A DNA stretch of 28,400 bases from an uncultured bacterium (GTDB taxonomy: Bacteria > Gemmatimonadota > Gemmatimonadetes > Gemmatimonadales > Gemmatimonadaceae): contig CAXBQP010000039.1 in NCBI GenBank assembly GCA_963978095.1, forward strand, positions 1 through 28,400, given 5' to 3'. Shown here piece by piece: positions 23,001-28,400 of this stretch; the stretch's first letter is position 1; every line of letters begins with the position of its first letter. A program made the position numbers.

Positions 23001-26000
23001 CCCGCGCTCGAAGCGCGCACCAGCGAGGTCGCGTCCGGGCTTCGGTGCCCCGTCTGCCAGGGGCTCTCCATCCAGGATTCCCCCTCGGAGCTCGCGCAGC
23101 AGATGCGGAGTCTCGTGCGTGACCAGCTCGCCGCGGGGAAAACCGGCGAGGAGGTCCGCGCCTATTTCATCTCCAAGTACGGCGAGTGGATTCTGCTCGA
23201 ACCCAAAGCGTCCGGGTTCAACGCCCTCGTGTACGTACTGCCGGTGGCGCTGGTGTTGGGTGGACTCCTGTTCATCCTGACCCTCGTCCGCCGCTGGACC
23301 GTCGTCCCCACCGACGGCGACCTCCCCTCGGGCGTCGAGCGCCCTGATCCCGACACCGACGACGTGTAAGTGGAAGGATGCCTGACCGGTCAGTCAGGCA
23401 TCCGGATACCAAGTTTCAGGTTTCTCCCTACGGGTTATTTCGGCGTGCGCCGTAATGTTCTCCTCGGTAGGAGCCGGAGCTTCGCATCACTTCCATGTTG
23501 GGCCCTCTGGAGGACGAGATCTTATGAGGCGCTCCATTGTTCAGACCATCACGACTCTCGCCGTCGTCGCCGCCGCGCTGAGCGTCGGATGCACCACGGA
23601 GAAGATCGTCTATCGCAGCGGTTCGAACTTCGTGGCCCCCCCGGGCTCCGCGAAGAGCTTTGTGGGATACAGCGACGAGACCAGCAAGCAGACGGTGTGC
23701 GGCGGTTGCCACGTTGACGCGCAGTCGCGCTGGGTGACCACCAAGCACGCGAGCGCGTGGAATACGCTGTCGACCAGTGGGTCCATGCAGGGCTATTGCC
23801 AGGGATGCCATACGGTCGGCGCCTACGGCAACGCGGCGACCGACACCACGGTCGGGTGGAACGGGTCGAAGGATGCGCGTTATCACGACGTGCAGTGCGA
23901 GAGCTGCCACGGCGCCGGCCTGACGCATGCCAGCAGCCCCACCTCGAGCAACCGCCCGCTCGCCAGCATCAAGGCCGACACGAATCTGACGACCGGCTGC
24001 GGCGAGTGCCACAGTGGCACGCACAACCCTTTCGTCCAGGAATGGCGCCTCTCGGGTCATTCCAAGACCGCGACGCTCACCGCCACGATCAAAACGAACA
24101 CCTACTGCCAGACCTGCCACACGGCGCAGGGCGCGCTGGTGGCATGGGGAGTGAGCAGCAACTATGCGGAGAAGGCCGACACGGGCTCCGCCCTGCTGTC
24201 GACCGTGTGCGCGGTCTGCCATGCTCCGCACGGCTCGGCCAACGCCAAGCAGCTCAGGTTCCCCGTCACCACGGCCAACACCGAAACGAATCTGTGCATG
24301 AAGTGCCACCAGCGCCGGTCGAACGTCGACATCACCACGACCAGCGGCGCGCACTCCCCCGAAGGTCCCACCCTGCTCGGCACGGCCGGTTGGTTCCCCC
24401 CGGGCATGAGCCCGGCCGACTCGCTGATCGGTTCGCACGGGAACACGGACCGCAATCCGAACTTGTGCGCGACGTGCCATGTGAGCCGCAACACCATCAC
24501 GGACAAGGCGACCGGCAAGTTCGTCTTCCAGAGCACCGGACACCGGTTCCTCGCGACCCCGTGCGTCGACGCGAACGGTCAGCCGACGGAGAGCCAGACG
24601 TGCACGGTGTCCGCGCAGACCTTCCGCAGTTGCGTTGCCTCGGGGTGCCACGCGAGTGAGACGGCGGCACGCAGCGCATTTGCGACGGCGGATGCGCGCA
24701 TCGCCACGTTGGCCACGACGCTCAGTACGCTGGTGACGCAGGCAAAGGCCAAGAAGCCGACGGATTTCGTCGCGTCGGCACCGATGAACACAGGCCGCGG
24801 TTCTGCCTTCAACGTCACCTTGGCACAAAAGGCGGGAGCGTCGGTGCACAACCCGTTCTTGATCGAGCAGTTGCTCCTCGGAAGCATCAAGCAGATCAAG
24901 ATCGACTACGCGCTCCCGTAACCGTTGTCCTCTCTGGTGCCAGTTCTGCTGCACGTTGCGGGTTCGGGGGCCGCGCCTGACGGGGCGCTGTCCACCGAAC
25001 CCGCGGCGCGTTTGTTCCGGTTCCTGTTCTCCGTGGTCCCGCAGTGGGTCCAACTCTCCGGCATTCTGATCGGCGTTCCCGTCGGACTGATCGTGGCCTG
25101 GTTGCTGTGGAAGAACCGCCTGGCCGTGCTGGCCTGGTTCCGCGCCCGATCGCGCGGTTTCCAGATCGCCCTCGTCAGCGCCTTCGCCATCGTGTCGCTG
25201 AGTGGCACCGGGACCGGATTGGTCGGTTATCACTACATGATGCACAACAACGACTTCTGCCAGTCGTGCCACATCATGGATACCGCCTGGAACCGCTTCC
25301 AAGTCTCCGCCCACAAGTCGCTGACCTGTCACGAATGCCATCGTCAGCCGATCTGGGTGAGTTCGATCGAGCTTTATTGGTGGGTGACGGAACGGCGCAT
25401 GGCCGTCCCGGCGCACGACAAAGTCCCAACCAAAGTGTGTGCCGAGTGCCACATGCAGGGGGGCGGGGATTCGTCGCGCAAGAACATCATGCTCACGGCT
25501 GGACATGTCGTGCACATGAAGTCCGACTCCGCCGCGCTCAAGCACGTGCAATGCACCACCTGCCACGGACGGGATTTCCATAAATTCACGCCCAACAACG
25601 CGACTTGCGCCCAATCGGGCTGTCACACCGACAAGAAGGTGAAACTCGGCGCGATGTCGCAGGCGGGCTTCCTGCACTGCGTCGTGTGCCATTCCTTCCG
25701 CAATCGCGTGAAGGACACGACGGACGTCAAGCAGGCCTCGAAGTCGATGTCCCCGACCAGCATCCAGTGCTACGGCTGTCACGAGATGACGGATCGGATG
25801 AAGAAGTTCGACCTGACGTCGGACCCGCATCGCGGGGGCTGCGGCACGTGTCACAACCCGCACCGGCAGGAAACGCCCAAGGAAGCGCTGAAGAGTTGCG
25901 CGACCGCGCAGTGCCACGGATCGACCGATACGCTCACGGCGTTCCATCGAGGGCTGGGGGCGCACGCGCTCGACGAATGCAGTGCCTGTCACAAGCCGCA

Positions 26001-28400
26001 CAGCTGGAAGGTCAAGGGCAGCGAGTGCCTGGCGTGCCACAAGAACATCTACGCCGACCGTCCCTCACTCCGGAAAGCGACGGCTCCGCCACCCCTCTGG
26101 GATCCCCCGGTGAAACACCCGCAGGCGTGGGAGCCGACCACGCCCCCCGGCGGGCCGTCAGCGTCCGACGCGGACGACGGAGTGTCCGCAGCGGTCGCGA
26201 TCGATGAGCGCGTCGCGGCGCGGGCGACGCACGACGCGGTGTCCCGCGATTCGACGCGCTTTCCGCATGCGCGACACAAGACAGTGCCTTGCGCCGATTG
26301 CCACGCGACCTCCAGTACGCATGGCGGCGTGAAGGTCACGCGGCCGGACGGATGCCGCAACTGTCATCACGCATCCTCCCAGAAGGCCTCGTGTGCCAGT
26401 TGCCACCAACAAGGGCCGAGTGCGGCGCGCACGGTCGACGTGAAGATGACCGTCACGGCGCGGAGGATTCCGCAGGTGGAACGAGCGCTCACCTTCGCGC
26501 ATGCACGCCACGCGGCACTCGCCTGTACGCAGTGCCACGATGACTCCCCGACTCGCGCACCGAAGGCGACCTGCCTCGGCTGTCACGCCGATCATCATCA
26601 GCCCAAGCGAGAATGCGCCGCTTGTCACACGGGCGCCAAGACCGGACATGACCGGGCCGCGCACGACGCGTGCGCGTCCTGTCATACGGCCCCGTGGGTG
26701 GCGCAGCTCCCGTCGTCTCGCACGCTCTGCCTCGCATGCCACGACACGCAGCGCACGCATGAGCCGGGACACGAGTGCTCAATCTGTCATCTGGTGAGTC
26801 CCCATGCCGGAGGACGCCAATGAGGGACCGCTCGCGCCGGAGCGCCGCCCTGATCGGCGCTCTGATGGCGGTGACCGCGGCGCCGCCGGTGGCGATGGCG
26901 CAGGGGCTCCGCATCACCGGCGTCACCAGCATGCAGTACGTGCAGCTGCGTCCCATGGCGCGTGATTCCACCTTCGCGCCGTATGACCCGAATGCTGAGG
27001 AATGGCGCCCCCGCCCCGACGGCGTGCTCATGCACTGCGGAAGTTCCAACTACTGCTATTGGTACGCGTCGCAAGCCGTCGCCAGCGCGGCTCCGGTGCT
27101 CCAAGATCTCTCGCTCACGGCGTGGGGAGGGGCGCAGGGGCTCAGCGTCCACGCGGACGTTCGCGCGCGCGCGCCACTCATCGCCAAGGGCTTCACCTAC
27201 CCGCGCTCCGACGACGCGGTCTCGTTGCTTGACGCCTACGTGGAGGTACAACGCTCGTGGGGACGTGCGCGCTTCGGTCGACAGTGGGTCATCGGCGGAC
27301 TCGGGTCCTACGACTTCGATGGCGCCAGTGCGCTCGTGCGCCGCGGACGCTGGAGCTACGAGGGGTGGGCGGGGCGCGCGTTGATCGGAGGGCTCAATGA
27401 TTCGCATGCGAGCGGGGCGCTCGCCACGCTCGAGAACTTTCCGCCGGATCAGGACGGATGGATCCTCGGCGCGCGGACGCGGCTGCGGACCGCCGCGGGT
27501 TCGAGTCTCGCCGCGATGTATCAGCGCGTGCTCATCGCCGATCGGAGCGGCGTCTATTCGGAGCGCGCCGCCCTCGATGCGACCACGCGCTGGTCCGCGC
27601 TCGCGCTCGACGGCGCCGCAGCCTACGACTTCGCGACCGGCGTCTGGAACGAAGCGCGCCTTCGACTGCATACCATGCGCGCGGGTCCCGCGGCCATGTC
27701 GGCGGAGCTGCGTCACCACGTGCCATTCTTCGAGCTCTGGACCATTTGGGGCGCCTTCAATCCCGTGGGTTACAACGAAGCGCGGAGTACCGTCGATTGG
27801 CATCCTGCGGGAAGCCATGTGACGCTCTCCGCACATGGCGCCTACCGCAAATACGAGGATGCCGATGCCGGGGTGAGTCTTCGCACCGATGGCTGGCGTG
27901 CCGGCGCCGATCTTGGCTGGGCGGGCAGTGGATCCTTTTCGGCGCTCGGCACTTACGAAGTGACCATCGGCAACGGGGCGTCGCGTAACGATGCGAGTGC
28001 AGCGCTCCGCTATACGAGGGGCGACGCGCTCGCCGTCGGACTCGACCTGTCCGCGCTGCAGAACATCTACGAGTTTCGGGTTGGCACCGGTCGCGTGTTC
28101 GGAGTCGCGGTCAGTGTGGCCAGGCGGATCGTTGACGATCTACGTCTCTCGGGTGACGTCGGTATTTATCGCCACCAACAGCTGCTGGGCGCCCCAGGGC
28201 CCGACTGGAATCAGCAACGCGCATCGCTCCGGTTGGAGTGGTCGGTCGGACGCGATCCCGGGTTGGCCTCCACCGGAAGGCCGGGTGTCACGGTGACGCC
28301 GTGACCAGCAGCGCTCCGCGACTTCTGCTGCTCCTGACCGCGCTGCTGTCGCCGCTCACTGTCCGCGCACAGCAACGCGACGGGTTCCCCCATGACGCGC

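What a model noticed while it worked through the whole genome (the two positions that open the first line are those of the whole stretch)
23524..28304. Multihaem cytochrome / 22-24-strand outer-membrane barrel module behind the ACIII and Ccm genes: a porin-cytochrome cond [...]
C39:23524-28304 encodes, in one direction and directly after the alternative complex III genes (g01912-g01917) and the cytochrome c maturation genes (g01918-g01925), an 8-haem lipoprotein (g01926, lipobox LSVGC), an 18-haem cytochrome with an N-terminal membrane anchor (g01927, no Pfam row in the tables) and a 494-aa protein without any family (g01928) that folds as a plug-less outer-membrane beta-barrel of about 24 strands. 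This is the build of porin-cytochrome extracellular electron conduits (MtrAB/PioAB, Geobacter Pcc). The barrel with an adjacent cytochrome of 12-17 CxxCH is found in nearly half of the Gemmatimonadota genomes sampled, so electron transfer across the outer membrane looks [...]
Evidence so far: CxxCH counts 8 and 18 (g02004 on C42: 14); Pfam Cytochrome_C7/c3/CIII on g01927 and weak Porin_4 on g01928. g01928 relatives in 180 of 400 other Gemmatimonadota genomes at E<=1e-10; in 24 of 24 fetched loci an ORF with 12-17 CxxCH lies within the 1.5-kb flank. AlphaFold2 from a 25-row alignment A4: mean pLDDT 79.6, pTM 0.73, signal helix then about 24 long strands. VIA-align against 48,161 PDB chains: barrels of TonB-dependent receptors and ushers Z 16-18, MtrB of the Mtr complex 6r2q_B Z 15.1 over 343 residues. 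MtrB_PioB Pfam on g02591, E 9e-33; family over the cut in 19 of 400 other Gemmatimonadota genomes. Papers: 'porin-cytochrome'+Gemmatimonad: 3; passages read in 2 of them name the phy [...]
(Added by a program. Inside this text positions count along the whole contig: contig position 1 is position 1 of the stretch shown here. "Call 12" and the like, gene names such as g00115 and contig names such as C1 are that model's own, and its searches are not shown. The text may have been shortened before it was handed on; [...] marks where a part breaks off. The agent that wrote the report below was given it as the finding of a first reader that could run no searches.)

Follow-up and report, generated by a model that had tools for sequence, protein, structure and literature searches.

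The report
Four-gene outer-membrane cytochrome conduit, Gemmatimonadota
A tightly packed operon encodes three very haem-rich cytochromes and a large plug-less outer-membrane barrel that together look like a new type of wire carrying respiratory electrons from the membrane quinone pool to the cell surface, and it occurs in almost half of the sampled genomes of a common soil and freshwater phylum.

Summary
In detail: 23524-28304 encodes a lipoprotein cytochrome, a membrane-anchored cytochrome with 18 CxxCH, and a family-less 494-aa barrel of about 24 strands. Barrel relatives occur in 180 of 400 other phylum genomes.

Four refinements:
1. The module has four genes. The last 100 bases of the window start a fourth gene, a Sec-exported 16-haem cytochrome whose start overlaps the barrel's stop codon. 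Its remainder lies at the end of contig C42. The same 4-base overlap was found in 74 of 78 named loci, and the frame is open and haem-rich in all 78.
2. The lipoprotein has nine haem sites. It is a homologue of OcwA and of the Carboxydothermus S-layer cytochrome, both surface reductases of Gram-positive metal reducers.
3. The anchored cytochrome has 20 haem sites. It begins with two membrane helices and an NrfH-type quinol-dehydrogenase module. A floppy linker then leads to a nine-haem end module.
4. The barrel shows no detectable kinship to MtrB/PioB.

Best reading (about 0.6): a new, so far Gemmatimonadota-only porin-cytochrome conduit wired straight to menaquinol. Direction, substrate and surface exposure are inferred. 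Nothing is experimentally shown.

The parts
23376..23403 (+). Perfect 11-bp hairpin 7 bases after the ccmH stop. It is a likely transcript boundary between the ccm genes and the cytochrome operon.
   Evidence: Fold of 23365-23425: -25.7 kcal/mol, z -4.46, and 0 of 200 shuffles fold as well. It has no U-tract, so the terminator scan did not list it.
23524..24921 (+). Gene 1 (g01926): a nonahaem lipoprotein cytochrome of the OcwA/OmhA (NrfA-superfamily) type. It is the proposed outer, substrate-facing reductase.
   Evidence: Lipobox LSVGC and 8 CxxCH + 1 Cx4CH. All 22 aligned homologues keep the nine motifs. Only 7 invariant extra His serve 9 haems. Profile against PDB: 6qvm_A E 1.7e-20, 6i5b_A E 2.4e-15. 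Fold match: 6i5b_B Z 12.2, 6qvm_A Z 11.3, on a low-confidence model of pLDDT 58.9. Pfam Cytochrome_C554 and MtrC-MtrF_II-IV are over their cut-offs.
24925..26823 (+). Gene 2 (g01927): a 20-haem-site cytochrome anchored in the inner membrane. It starts 3 bases after the gene 1 stop, and its stop overlaps the barrel start by 4 bases.
   Evidence: 18 CxxCH + 2 Cx4CH. 20 extra His are conserved at 90% or more in 11 full-length homologues, enough for bis-His ligation of every haem. Domain layout from the alignment.
25045..25230 (+). Two hydrophobic helices of gene 2 (about residues 41-62 and 79-102), separated by an Arg/Lys-rich loop.
   Evidence: Read from the sequence and the alignment. 9 of 11 full-length homologues have both helices; 2 have only the second. 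No topology program was run.
25234..25344 (+). NrfH/NapC-type quinol-dehydrogenase signature of gene 2: FCxxCHxM (first haem) and the second haem motif.
   Evidence: phmmer to NrfH 2j7a_C: E 5.4e-5. Family profile to 2j7a_C: E 2.7e-11 over the helix plus haems 1-2. NCBIfam NrfH: 29.6 bits, below the 134 cut-off. The motif is present in 44 of 49 large upstream ORFs in named loci.
26077..26259 (+). Pro/Ala-rich linker of gene 2, variable in length and without haem motifs (about residues 385-445).
   Evidence: Alignment columns of about 440-600 are unalignable and vary in length between homologues.
26260..26823 (+). C-terminal nine-haem module of gene 2. In other genomes it is a separate small lipoprotein placed directly before the barrel.
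   Evidence: Invariant motifs from F446 onward also hold in the two short stand-alone forms (L039, L038), which begin with lipoprotein-type signals. Profile match to the c7-repeat cytochrome 3ov0_A: E 5.4e-11.
26820..28304 (+). Gene 3 (g01928): an outer-membrane beta-barrel of about 24 strands with a Sec signal, no plug and no known family.
   Evidence: 0 PDB sequence hits at E<=10 with the profile; structure and fold search. A conserved Cys pair, C73/C79, sits in an N-terminal loop.
28301..28400 (+). Gene 4, first 33 codons: the GTG start overlaps the barrel's TGA (GTGA). It encodes a Sec signal peptide and the first conserved F-P-H motif of a 16-haem cytochrome. The gene continues on G000:C42 (26254-27522, minus strand).
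   Evidence: About 24 residues, including haem motif 1, fall in the gap between the contigs.

Best explanation
The four genes form one operon that builds an electron conduit across the whole cell envelope.

Gene 2 sits in the inner membrane. Its NrfH-type head takes electrons from menaquinol. Its further haems pass them along a chain. A flexible linker lets its nine-haem end module reach the outer membrane.

There, gene 4 (16 haems, all six-coordinate, made in step with the barrel) lies inside or against the 24-strand barrel of gene 3 and carries the electrons through the outer membrane.

Gene 1, a nine-haem lipoprotein related to the surface reductases OcwA and OmhA, receives the electrons on the outside. 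It passes them to an extracellular or poorly permeant acceptor such as Fe(III)/Mn(IV) minerals, humics or flavins.

Shown here: the gene content, the haem counts and ligands, the signal types, the family relationships, the fold of the barrel, the conserved 4-base gene overlaps, and the distribution.

Inferred: the barrel houses the 16-haem protein, the lipoprotein is surface-exposed, flow is outward (I put this at about 2:1 over inward), and the identity of the acceptor.
For: 1. Tight operon. There are 3 bases between genes 1 and 2, and 4-base overlaps at 2/3 and 3/4.

2. The barrel-to-gene-4 coupling is conserved.
- A start codon overlaps the barrel stop by 4 bases, followed by 9-16 CxxCH, in the loci from the genome search. 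That set is 49 locus ids, about 38 unique.
- The same holds in 74 of 78 named loci with at least 300 bases of room. The other 4 are open in the same frame: three have CTG at that position and 11-16 CxxCH, and one has too little room.

3. Gene 4 has a Sec signal peptide, not a lipobox. It has 16 CxxCH with 15 conserved extra His plus one Met. It is therefore a pure wire with no open catalytic haem.

4. The barrel is plug-less and large. Its best fold matches are 22- to 26-strand barrels that all hold a protein or plug in their lumen: TonB-dependent receptors, ushers and MtrB.

5. Complex prediction for the barrel plus the 16-haem protein of the same-genus genome G230 gave weak support.
- Score 0.50 (runs 0.09, 0.50, 0.52); best of 3 controls 0.00.
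- The mark was reached by 116 of 157 solved complexes and 2 of 215 mismatched pairs.
- At 0.60 or under, only 18 of those 157 reached it, as did both mismatches that passed.
- The runs agree in at least 18% of contacts, and the partner's pLDDT is at least 64.

6. Gene 1 is a lipoprotein in 22 of 22 homologues. Its closest solved relatives are the two known cell-surface terminal reductases of Gram-positive metal reducers. The OcwA paper (PMC6703420, passages read) describes nine haems, a C-terminal helix bundle, and c554-like plus NrfA-like halves. Gene 1 matches this in haem number, the Pfam c554 hit and the confident C-terminal helices.

7. Gene 2 carries the NrfH signature.

8. Where the NrfH part is missing, the nine-haem end module persists as a lipoprotein directly before the barrel. 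This is as expected if that module is the docking piece.

9. Apart from ActA (5 CxxCH) and one 4-CxxCH ORF, these are the only multihaem ORFs in this 91%-complete genome.
Against: - No part is homologous to a proven conduit. The barrel lacks the MtrB_PioB match, hhalign is inconclusive, and its fold matches are generic large barrels.
- The complex score is only a weak pass, and one of three runs failed.
- Gene 1 has just 7 conserved distal His for 9 haems, like the catalytic NrfA-family enzymes. Chemistry on a soluble substrate is therefore possible.
- All 80 named relatives are metagenome bins; none is a cultured strain.
- I found no report of extracellular electron transfer by a Gemmatimonadota isolate in four full-text searches.
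- FeGenie-type hits to D. ferrophilus DFE_0461-0465 have been noted in Gemmatimonadota (PMC11316326, passages). In D. ferrophilus, deleting those cytochromes did not stop Fe(III) oxide reduction (PMC9769857, passages).
- The ACIII neighbourhood is not conserved.
Confidence: 0.6

Rival explanations
1. The same hardware runs inward. It takes electrons from an outside donor (Fe(II), Mn(II), reduced humics, a partner cell or a mineral), as MtoAB/PioAB do. It delivers them to the quinone pool through the NrfH-type head, or to periplasmic carriers that feed ACIII and the oxidases.
For: The module is built from reversible bis-His haem chains. In this genome it sits beside ACIII and ccm, which is an aerobic-type chain. 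The runs that hold the DNA are freshwater or aquatic metagenomes, 7 runs from 5 studies. Published authors state that direction cannot be told from such genes in this phylum (PMC11316326, passage).
Against: NrfH/NapC/CymA-type heads are best known as quinol oxidisers; this is recalled family knowledge, not tested here. Reducing menaquinone with Fe(II)-derived electrons is uphill. The closest relatives of gene 1 are reductases of metal-reducing bacteria. The ACIII adjacency is not conserved.
Confidence: 0.2
2. A periplasmic NrfHA-like respiratory enzyme. Gene 1 is a catalytic multihaem reductase or oxidase for a soluble N or S compound, and gene 2 is its quinol dehydrogenase. The barrel is merely a substrate porin, and gene 4 is a periplasmic electron store.
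For: Gene 1 belongs to the NrfA/HAO/MccA/ONR superfamily and has two haems without a conserved distal His. Gene 2 has the NrfH head. OcwA itself reduces nitrite and hydroxylamine in vitro (PMC6703420).
Against: There is no CxxCK and no other known catalytic motif. Thirty-six bis-His wire haems are far more than an enzyme needs. Gene 1 stays with the barrel and gene 4 even where the NrfH part is absent (loci L036, L038-L042). The strict 4-base coupling of a 24-strand barrel to a 16-haem protein has no role in this model. A 24-strand plug-less pore would be an oddly large substrate channel.
Confidence: 0.12
3. The barrel is a dedicated translocon, usher- or Slam-like in role. It exports the lipoprotein cytochrome and/or the 16-haem protein to the cell surface rather than sheathing a wire.
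For: The top Foldseek matches are the FimD/PapC usher pores. A surface lipoprotein needs some export route.
Against: Ushers carry plug, N- and C-terminal periplasmic domains, and this 494-aa protein is barrel only. One-to-one translational coupling suggests a stoichiometric partner rather than a catalytic exporter.
Confidence: 0.06

Closest known systems
MtrCAB / MtoAB / PioAB (Shewanella, Sideroxydans, Rhodopseudomonas)
   Same: The logic is the same: a lipoprotein multihaem cytochrome, a signal-peptide multihaem wire and a large plug-less barrel encoded side by side. MtrB is among the fold matches (Z 15.7). Gene 1 passes the Pfam MtrC/MtrF domain II/IV cut-off.
   Different: The barrel does not match PF11854, and this genome carries a separate true PF11854 gene on C86. 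The wire has 16 haems of c7/HmcA type, not the decahaem DmsE/MtrA type. The outer cytochrome is NrfA/OcwA-type, not MtrC-type. The quinol dehydrogenase is fused into the operon's own 20-haem protein instead of being a separate CymA with soluble shuttles.
Geobacter Pcc (OmaB-OmbB-OmcB) and the proposed PCC3/PCC4 clusters (He et al. 2017, PMC5566968, passages read)
   Same: They share a porin plus periplasmic and extracellular multihaem cytochromes with low residue-per-haem ratios, plus an inner-membrane component in the same cluster. Like this module, they were proposed from genomes only.
   Different: PCC3/PCC4 use a five-helix dihaem-b-like membrane protein, whereas this module uses an NrfH-type c-haem head fused to the wire. 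PCC3 cytochromes have medians of 34 and 21 haems and are mostly proteobacterial. I had no Geobacter reference sequences to test, so kinship to OmbB is untested.
OcwA (Thermincola potens, 6i5b) and the S-layer undecahaem cytochrome of Carboxydothermus ferrireducens (6qvm)
   Same: Gene 1 is a true homologue by sequence profile (E 2.4e-15 and 1.7e-20). It has nine haem sites like OcwA, a c554-like start and a C-terminal helix bundle.
   Different: Those proteins sit on Gram-positive walls or S-layers. Gene 1 is a lipoprotein of a diderm and is paired with an outer-membrane barrel. Its ninth haem uses Cx4CH.
NrfH / NapC / CymA quinol dehydrogenases
   Same: They share a membrane helix followed by CxxCHxM and a second haem motif at the same spacing. 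The profile E-value to NrfH 2j7a_C is 2.7e-11.
   Different: The protein is 632 aa with 20 haem sites instead of about 160-200 aa with four. It usually has two helices. It scores below the NCBIfam NrfH cut-off and has no Pfam NapC/NirT hit at E<=0.01.
D. ferrophilus DFE_0461-0465 (FeGenie markers)
   Same: Published FeGenie screens report such hits 'widely' in marine Gemmatimonadota (PMC11316326) and in one spring MAG (PMC13055281). They probably hit cytochromes of this module.
   Different: The D. ferrophilus clusters have NHL-repeat proteins and no porin (PMC9769857). I could not run the FeGenie models, so the equation is a guess.

Membership tests
MtrB/PioB outer-membrane barrel (Pfam PF11854) | Match to the MtrB_PioB profile over its cut-off | tested here: not met
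   Pfam scan of g01928 listed only Porin_4 at E 2.7e-4. The same model finds a different gene in this genome (C86, 112.8 bits).
MtrB/PioB outer-membrane barrel (Pfam PF11854) | Remote homology by profile-profile comparison | tested here: inconclusive
   hhalign of the 29-row barrel alignment against 13 Gemmatimonadota MtrB_PioB proteins: probability 52%, 62 columns, 16% identity.
MtrA/DmsE decahaem family (TIGR03508) | Periplasmic wire cytochrome reaches the family cut-off (192 bits) | tested here: not met
   The 16-haem protein had no NCBIfam family at E<=0.1. Gene 1 scored 36.9 bits.
Geobacter Pcc (OmaB/OmbB/OmcB) | Sequence kinship of the porin and cytochromes to OmbB, OmaB and OmcB | not testable with these tools
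The only Geobacter-derived model hit was GSU2203 decahaem at 27.7 bits against a cut-off of 325.
Porin-cytochrome conduit (functional class) | Plug-less outer-membrane barrel encoded next to multihaem cytochromes, one with a Sec signal and one a lipoprotein | tested here: met
Porin-cytochrome conduit (functional class) | A cytochrome physically sits in the barrel | tested here: inconclusive
   Weak support only: score 0.50 against best control 0.00, with one of three runs at 0.09.
Porin-cytochrome conduit (functional class) | Surface exposure of the lipoprotein cytochrome, and electron transfer to an outside substrate | not testable with these tools
   This needs cells or protein.
NrfH/NapC/NirT quinol dehydrogenase | N-terminal membrane helix followed by the CxxCHxM first-haem motif (the motif's role is recalled from the NrfH literature) | tested here: met
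   The sequence reads FCQSCHIM after the second helix. It aligns to NrfH 2j7a_C residues 11-73. The motif is present in 44 of 49 large upstream ORFs.
NrfH/NapC/NirT quinol dehydrogenase | Reaches a curated family cut-off (NCBIfam NrfH 134 bits; Pfam NapC/NirT) | tested here: not met
   29.6 bits, and no Pfam NapC/NirT row at E<=0.01. Only the head is alike.
NrfA/OcwA superfamily of multihaem cytochromes (gene 1) | Sequence and fold kinship, c554-like plus NrfA-like haem halves, C-terminal helix bundle | tested here: met
   Profile E 1.7e-20 (6qvm) and 2.4e-15 (6i5b). Z 12.2 and 11.3, then NrfA at 10.8 (model pLDDT only 58.9). Pfam c554 at 26.8 bits against a cut-off of 20.8. Confident helices at 379-462.
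NrfA nitrite reductase proper | CxxCK catalytic haem motif | tested here: not met
   No CxxCK in gene 1.

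The most novel reading that the evidence does not exclude
Gene 2 is a single polypeptide that hard-wires the two membranes. It is a menaquinol dehydrogenase whose own haem chain and flexible Pro/Ala linker carry a nine-haem plug-in module to a barrel-sheathed 16-haem wire. About 45 haems would then run from the quinone pool to an OcwA-like reductase on the surface without any soluble periplasmic shuttle. If so, nearly half of Gemmatimonadota, an abundant but physiologically obscure soil and freshwater phylum, would respire (or feed on) extracellular redox substrates through a conduit family of their own.
Probability: 0.35. Interest if true: 0.8.

Novelty: new variant of a known kind. 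Interest (0 to 1): 0.65.

Why it matters
Gemmatimonadota are among the commoner phyla in soils and fresh waters, yet little is known of how they live. In four full-text searches I found no description of a conduit of their own. What I found was a singleton MtrCAB, three MtrABC operons, and unspecific FeGenie hits.

A phylum-wide module would add a major group to the organisms that can move electrons to or from minerals, humics and electrodes. It occurs in 180 of 400 sampled genomes, and in 117 of 166 in one family.

Mechanistically it offers three testable oddities:
- an outer-membrane barrel family with no known relatives;
- a Gram-positive-type surface reductase re-used as a diderm lipoprotein;
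- a quinol dehydrogenase fused to its own periplasm-spanning wire.

Tried and rejected
- **Barrel sequence searches.** A single sequence against PDB gave only chance hits at E>1. The profile gave 0 hits at E<=10. NCBIfam gave none.
- **Barrel feature and structure look-up.** All 30 nearest ESM Atlas clusters are unnamed and Gemmatimonadota-dominated. The nearest named clusters (generic OMP, BBP2_2) score 0.92-0.93, which is chance level.
- **Spread beyond the phylum.** The 80 best of 321 genome contigs relatives are all Gemmatimonad-labelled or unlabelled MAGs. That scan used one very specific peptide pattern. The 1.84-billion-representative search gave 874 proteins at E<=1e-3 but carries no taxonomy. 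Absence elsewhere is therefore not shown.
- **AlphaFold2 of gene 1.** pLDDT was only 58.9. The haem domain is unreliable, and only the ranking of matches was used.
- **Expression.** No RNA holder was listed among the 7 runs, so nothing can be said about expression.
- **ACIII coupling.** I considered and dropped the idea that ACIII is functionally coupled, because the adjacency is not conserved.
- **Insertion in gene 4.** I considered that gene 4 is broken by an insertion in this genome and rejected it. In run X1, one contig follows the gene up to L053:2201 and then runs on for 864 bases unlike the C42 end. A second contig covers the odd C42 end and diverges on its other side. The reported loose letters, read by hand in the gene's frame, give sense codons that align with the homologues. 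The C42 end is therefore an assembly join.
- **Promoter and terminator scan of 23200-23700.** Nothing was found.
- **Supplement of PMC13264449.** It lists 16 Gemmatimonadota rows but has no column for PCCs, and the paper's Figure 6 is not held. I cannot say whether that paper's PCC groups include this module.

Full report
**What is in the window.** The window is contig C39 of a 2.98-Mb, 101-contig, 91%-complete genome. The closest relatives of its proteins are labelled Gemmatimonadaceae or Gemmatimonas MAGs.

On the plus strand lie ActA-F of alternative complex III (9428-17191) and then ccmABCEFGH (17448-23369). A perfect 11-bp hairpin follows (23376-23403; -25.7 kcal/mol, z -4.46). After it comes the region in question.

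- Gene 1 is 23524-24921. It has the lipobox LSVGC and 8 CxxCH.
- Gene 2 is 24925-26823 and has 18 CxxCH.
- Gene 3 is 26820-28304 and has no haem motif.

The coding frame holds 26 CxxCH in the window, against 5, 1, 0, 0 and 0 in the other five frames.

**A fourth gene.** The contig ends 96 bases after the barrel gene, and those bases are coding. A GTG overlaps the barrel's TGA and opens a frame encoding a Sec signal peptide followed by a conserved F-P-H motif.

In 20 long loci fetched from other genomes, the gene right after the barrel is a 466-522-aa cytochrome, usually with 16 CxxCH. It begins with the same signal and motif.

The same-genus protein finds its counterpart in this genome at the very end of contig C42 (26254-27522, minus strand; 15 CxxCH). 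It aligns from just before haem motif 2 to the C-terminus. About 24 residues, with motif 1, fall between the contigs.

The last 240 bases of C42 are 55% G+C, against 71% for the gene, and are unrelated. In public run X1, one contig follows the gene to the junction and runs on for 864 bases unlike C42. Another contig covers the odd end and diverges on its other side. The C42 end is therefore an assembly join, and the gene is most likely whole.

**Conservation of the core.** Barrel relatives occur in 180 of 400 other phylum genomes at E<=1e-5. By family the counts are 117 of 166 in f2, 26 of 93 in the window's own family, and 0 of 13, 0 of 4, 0 of 3 and 0 of 3 in four others.

In every locus from that search, a start codon overlaps the barrel stop by 4 bases and opens a frame with 9-16 CxxCH. 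Truncated loci give the lower numbers, and one start reads CTG. The set is 49 locus ids, about 38 unique.

An independent set of 80 named loci gave the same picture. Of the 78 with at least 300 bases after the barrel, 74 have ATG, GTG or TTG in the 4-base overlap and at least 3 CxxCH, mostly 16. Three more have CTG there with the frame open and 11-16 CxxCH. One has room for only 103 codons. Barrel plus 16-haem gene is thus the invariant, translationally coupled core.

**Variable upstream part.** Upstream of the barrel the build varies.
- 49 of the 80 named loci have an ORF with at least 13 CxxCH ending at the barrel start. Of these, 44 carry FCxxCHx[M/F] near the N-terminus.
- 20 of 80 have an 8-12-CxxCH ORF there.
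- 11 have fewer. Fourteen loci are cut short upstream.

In the long loci, a gene 1 homologue is present in 18 of 20 and is duplicated in four. Where the long gene 2 is missing, its last nine-haem module stands alone with a lipoprotein-type signal right before the barrel (L038, L039).

ACIII is not a conserved neighbour. Ccm genes are neighbours in 4 loci of the window's own family, and there are partial ccm genes in 2 others.

**The barrel (gene 3).** It has no family: Pfam gives only sub-threshold Porin_4, NCBIfam gives nothing, and PDB sequence searches give nothing even with a profile.
- 280 word-index relatives were found, and all the named ones are 'hypothetical protein' of Gemmatimonad MAGs.
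- 874 representatives at E<=1e-3 were found among 1.84 billion.
- The nearest Atlas clusters are all unnamed and Gemmatimonadota-dominated.

AlphaFold2 (29 rows) gives pLDDT 83.4 and pTM 0.77: a signal helix, 24 strands of 7 or more residues, three poorly modelled loops and no plug. A nearly invariant Cys pair sits in the first long loop.

Fold searches return large barrels in general. TonB-dependent receptors score Z 18.0-18.6, Occ porins and ushers 16-17, and MtrB 15.7 at rank 19. Foldseek's top matches are the FimD usher.

Against 13 true MtrB_PioB proteins of the same phylum (present in 19 of 400 genomes), hhalign gives 52% probability over 62 columns. The barrel is a fold-mate of conduit barrels but is not shown to be their relative.

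**The wire (gene 4).** It has 16 CxxCH, with 15 extra His conserved at 92% or more plus one Met. Every haem can therefore be six-coordinate.

Pfam calls c7 and MtrC/MtrF-type domains. By profile, the N-terminal part resembles the 16-haem HmcA proteins (2e84_A, E 4.8e-15) and GSU1996-type c7 repeats. No NCBIfam family is reached. Databases call it 'cytochrome c3 family protein'.

A complex prediction for the barrel and this protein from the same-genus genome gave weak support. The score was 0.50 (runs 0.09, 0.50, 0.52) and the best of 3 controls was 0.00. That mark was reached by 116 of 157 solved complexes and 2 of 215 mismatches. At 0.60 or under, only 18 of the 157 reached it, as did both passing mismatches. 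Contact agreement was at least 18% and partner pLDDT at least 64.

**The lipoprotein (gene 1).** It has nine haem sites, because a Cx4CH is invariant in 22 of 22 homologues. All 22 have a lipobox. Only 7 extra His are invariant.

By profile it is homologous to the S-layer undecahaem cytochrome of Carboxydothermus ferrireducens (6qvm_A, E 1.7e-20 over residues 89-450) and to OcwA of Thermincola (6i5b_A, E 2.4e-15). More distant matches are MtrA, HAO, c554 and octahaem nitrite reductases.

My model is poor (pLDDT 58.9) apart from the C-terminal helices. Even so, its best structural matches are the same two proteins (Z 12.2 and 11.3), followed by NrfA.

The OcwA paper (passages read) describes nine haems, six bis-His, one His-Met and two five-coordinate, a c554-like half, an NrfA-like half and a three-helix bundle. 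Gene 1 fits that pattern. It also leaves room for catalysis on small molecules. No CxxCK is present.

**The anchored cytochrome (gene 2).** It has 20 haem sites and 20 extra His conserved at 90% or more. Its layout runs in this order:
- a conserved N-terminal stretch;
- two hydrophobic helices split by an Arg/Lys-rich loop;
- FCQSCHIM and a second haem motif, which align with the helix and haems 1-2 of the quinol dehydrogenase NrfH (E 5.4e-5 for the single sequence and 2.7e-11 for the profile);
- further haems;
- a Pro/Ala-rich linker of very variable length;
- a nine-haem c7-type module conserved to the last residue.

It does not reach the NrfH or NapC/NirT family cut-offs. Only the head is alike.

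**Mechanism.** The simplest model that uses all four parts and the variants is a trans-envelope conduit:
- The NrfH-type head exchanges electrons with menaquinol.
- The chain and linker bring the nine-haem module to the outer membrane.
- The barrel-coupled 16-haem wire crosses the outer membrane.
- The OcwA-like lipoprotein is the outer terminal.

In genomes without the fused head, the end module is tethered by lipid instead, and electrons must arrive by another route.

I favour outward flow, because the head type and the relatives of gene 1 are known from reductive pathways. That part is recalled family knowledge. I cannot exclude uptake.

The rivals are a periplasmic NrfHA-like enzyme with a substrate porin, and a barrel acting as an export pore. 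Neither explains the invariant barrel/16-haem coupling, and each has its own difficulties (see the rival explanations).

**Known or new.** Porin-cytochrome conduits are a known kind with several unrelated families: Mtr/Mto/Pio, Geobacter Pcc, and the proposed PCC3/PCC4 (PMC5566968).

For Gemmatimonadota, the held literature offers the following:
- one MtrCAB singleton (PMC8805035);
- three MtrABC operons and 'widely annotated' Cyc2 and DFE_0461-0465 homologues of unclear direction (PMC11316326);
- FeGenie hits in one MAG (PMC13055281);
- a table entry of ImcH/CbcL homologues (PMC6295460);
- a 2026 survey of PCCs in karst MAGs. Its text names Gemmatimonadota only in community composition, and I could not see its figure (PMC13264449).

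None of the passages I read describes this four-gene module, its barrel family, the OcwA/OmhA kinship or the NrfH fusion. Papers outside the held library, and bioRxiv supplements, could hold it. I rate it a new variant of a known kind.

Noticed in passing
G000:C42:27523-27765 (L053:2212-2454): The last 240 or so bases of contig C42 are 55% G+C, against 71% for the adjoining cytochrome gene. On the other strand they encode an open 86-aa fragment with a weak MotA_N match (E 1.3e-3). Contigs of run X1 diverge on both sides of L053:2181-2201, so this contig end is a chimeric assembly join.
   Followed up: yes
G000:C86:13-879 (L002): A true MtrB_PioB-family barrel fragment (112.8 bits) lies at the very start of a 5-kb contig. 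No decahaem partner is present in the assembly. The whole genome has only five ORFs with 4 or more CxxCH: 18, 15 and 8 in this module, ActA with 5, and one with 4 on C1:125324-126448.
   Followed up: partly
window 23376-23403: A perfect 11-bp GC-rich hairpin lies just after ccmH, with no U-tract (-25.7 kcal/mol, z -4.46). It may be a terminator or processing site separating the ccm genes from the cytochrome operon.
   Followed up: partly
L050:15038-19401 (G122), L045:1704-8896 (G075), L044:775-6236 (G023): Some relatives carry further giant cytochromes near the module: 23 and 31 CxxCH in L050; 21, 11 and 19 in L045; 9, 21 and 11 in L044. L045 and L049 also have NrfC/NrfD-like (ActB/ActC-like) pairs nearby.
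   Followed up: no
L036, L040 (and L017, L019, L020, L025): A variant of the module has two tandem copies of the nonahaem lipoprotein gene and no gene 2 at all before the barrel.
   Followed up: partly
window 4022-5077: An ORF of 351 aa has CarboxypepD_reg and Plug domains only, with no receptor barrel behind it. It overlaps the ABC-2 permease gene, and my GC3-based gene caller did not keep it. It may be a remnant of a TonB-dependent receptor or a mis-called frame.
   Followed up: no
window 6527-8525: No plus-strand ORF here has a family. The GC3 pattern favours two minus-strand ORFs (7172-7873 and 7884-8522, GC3 0.86 and 0.98), which were not scanned.
   Followed up: no
G055:C21: In one same-genus genome, a full MtrB_PioB gene (12565-14550) and the barrel of this module (31127-32332) lie 17 kb apart on one contig.
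   Followed up: no
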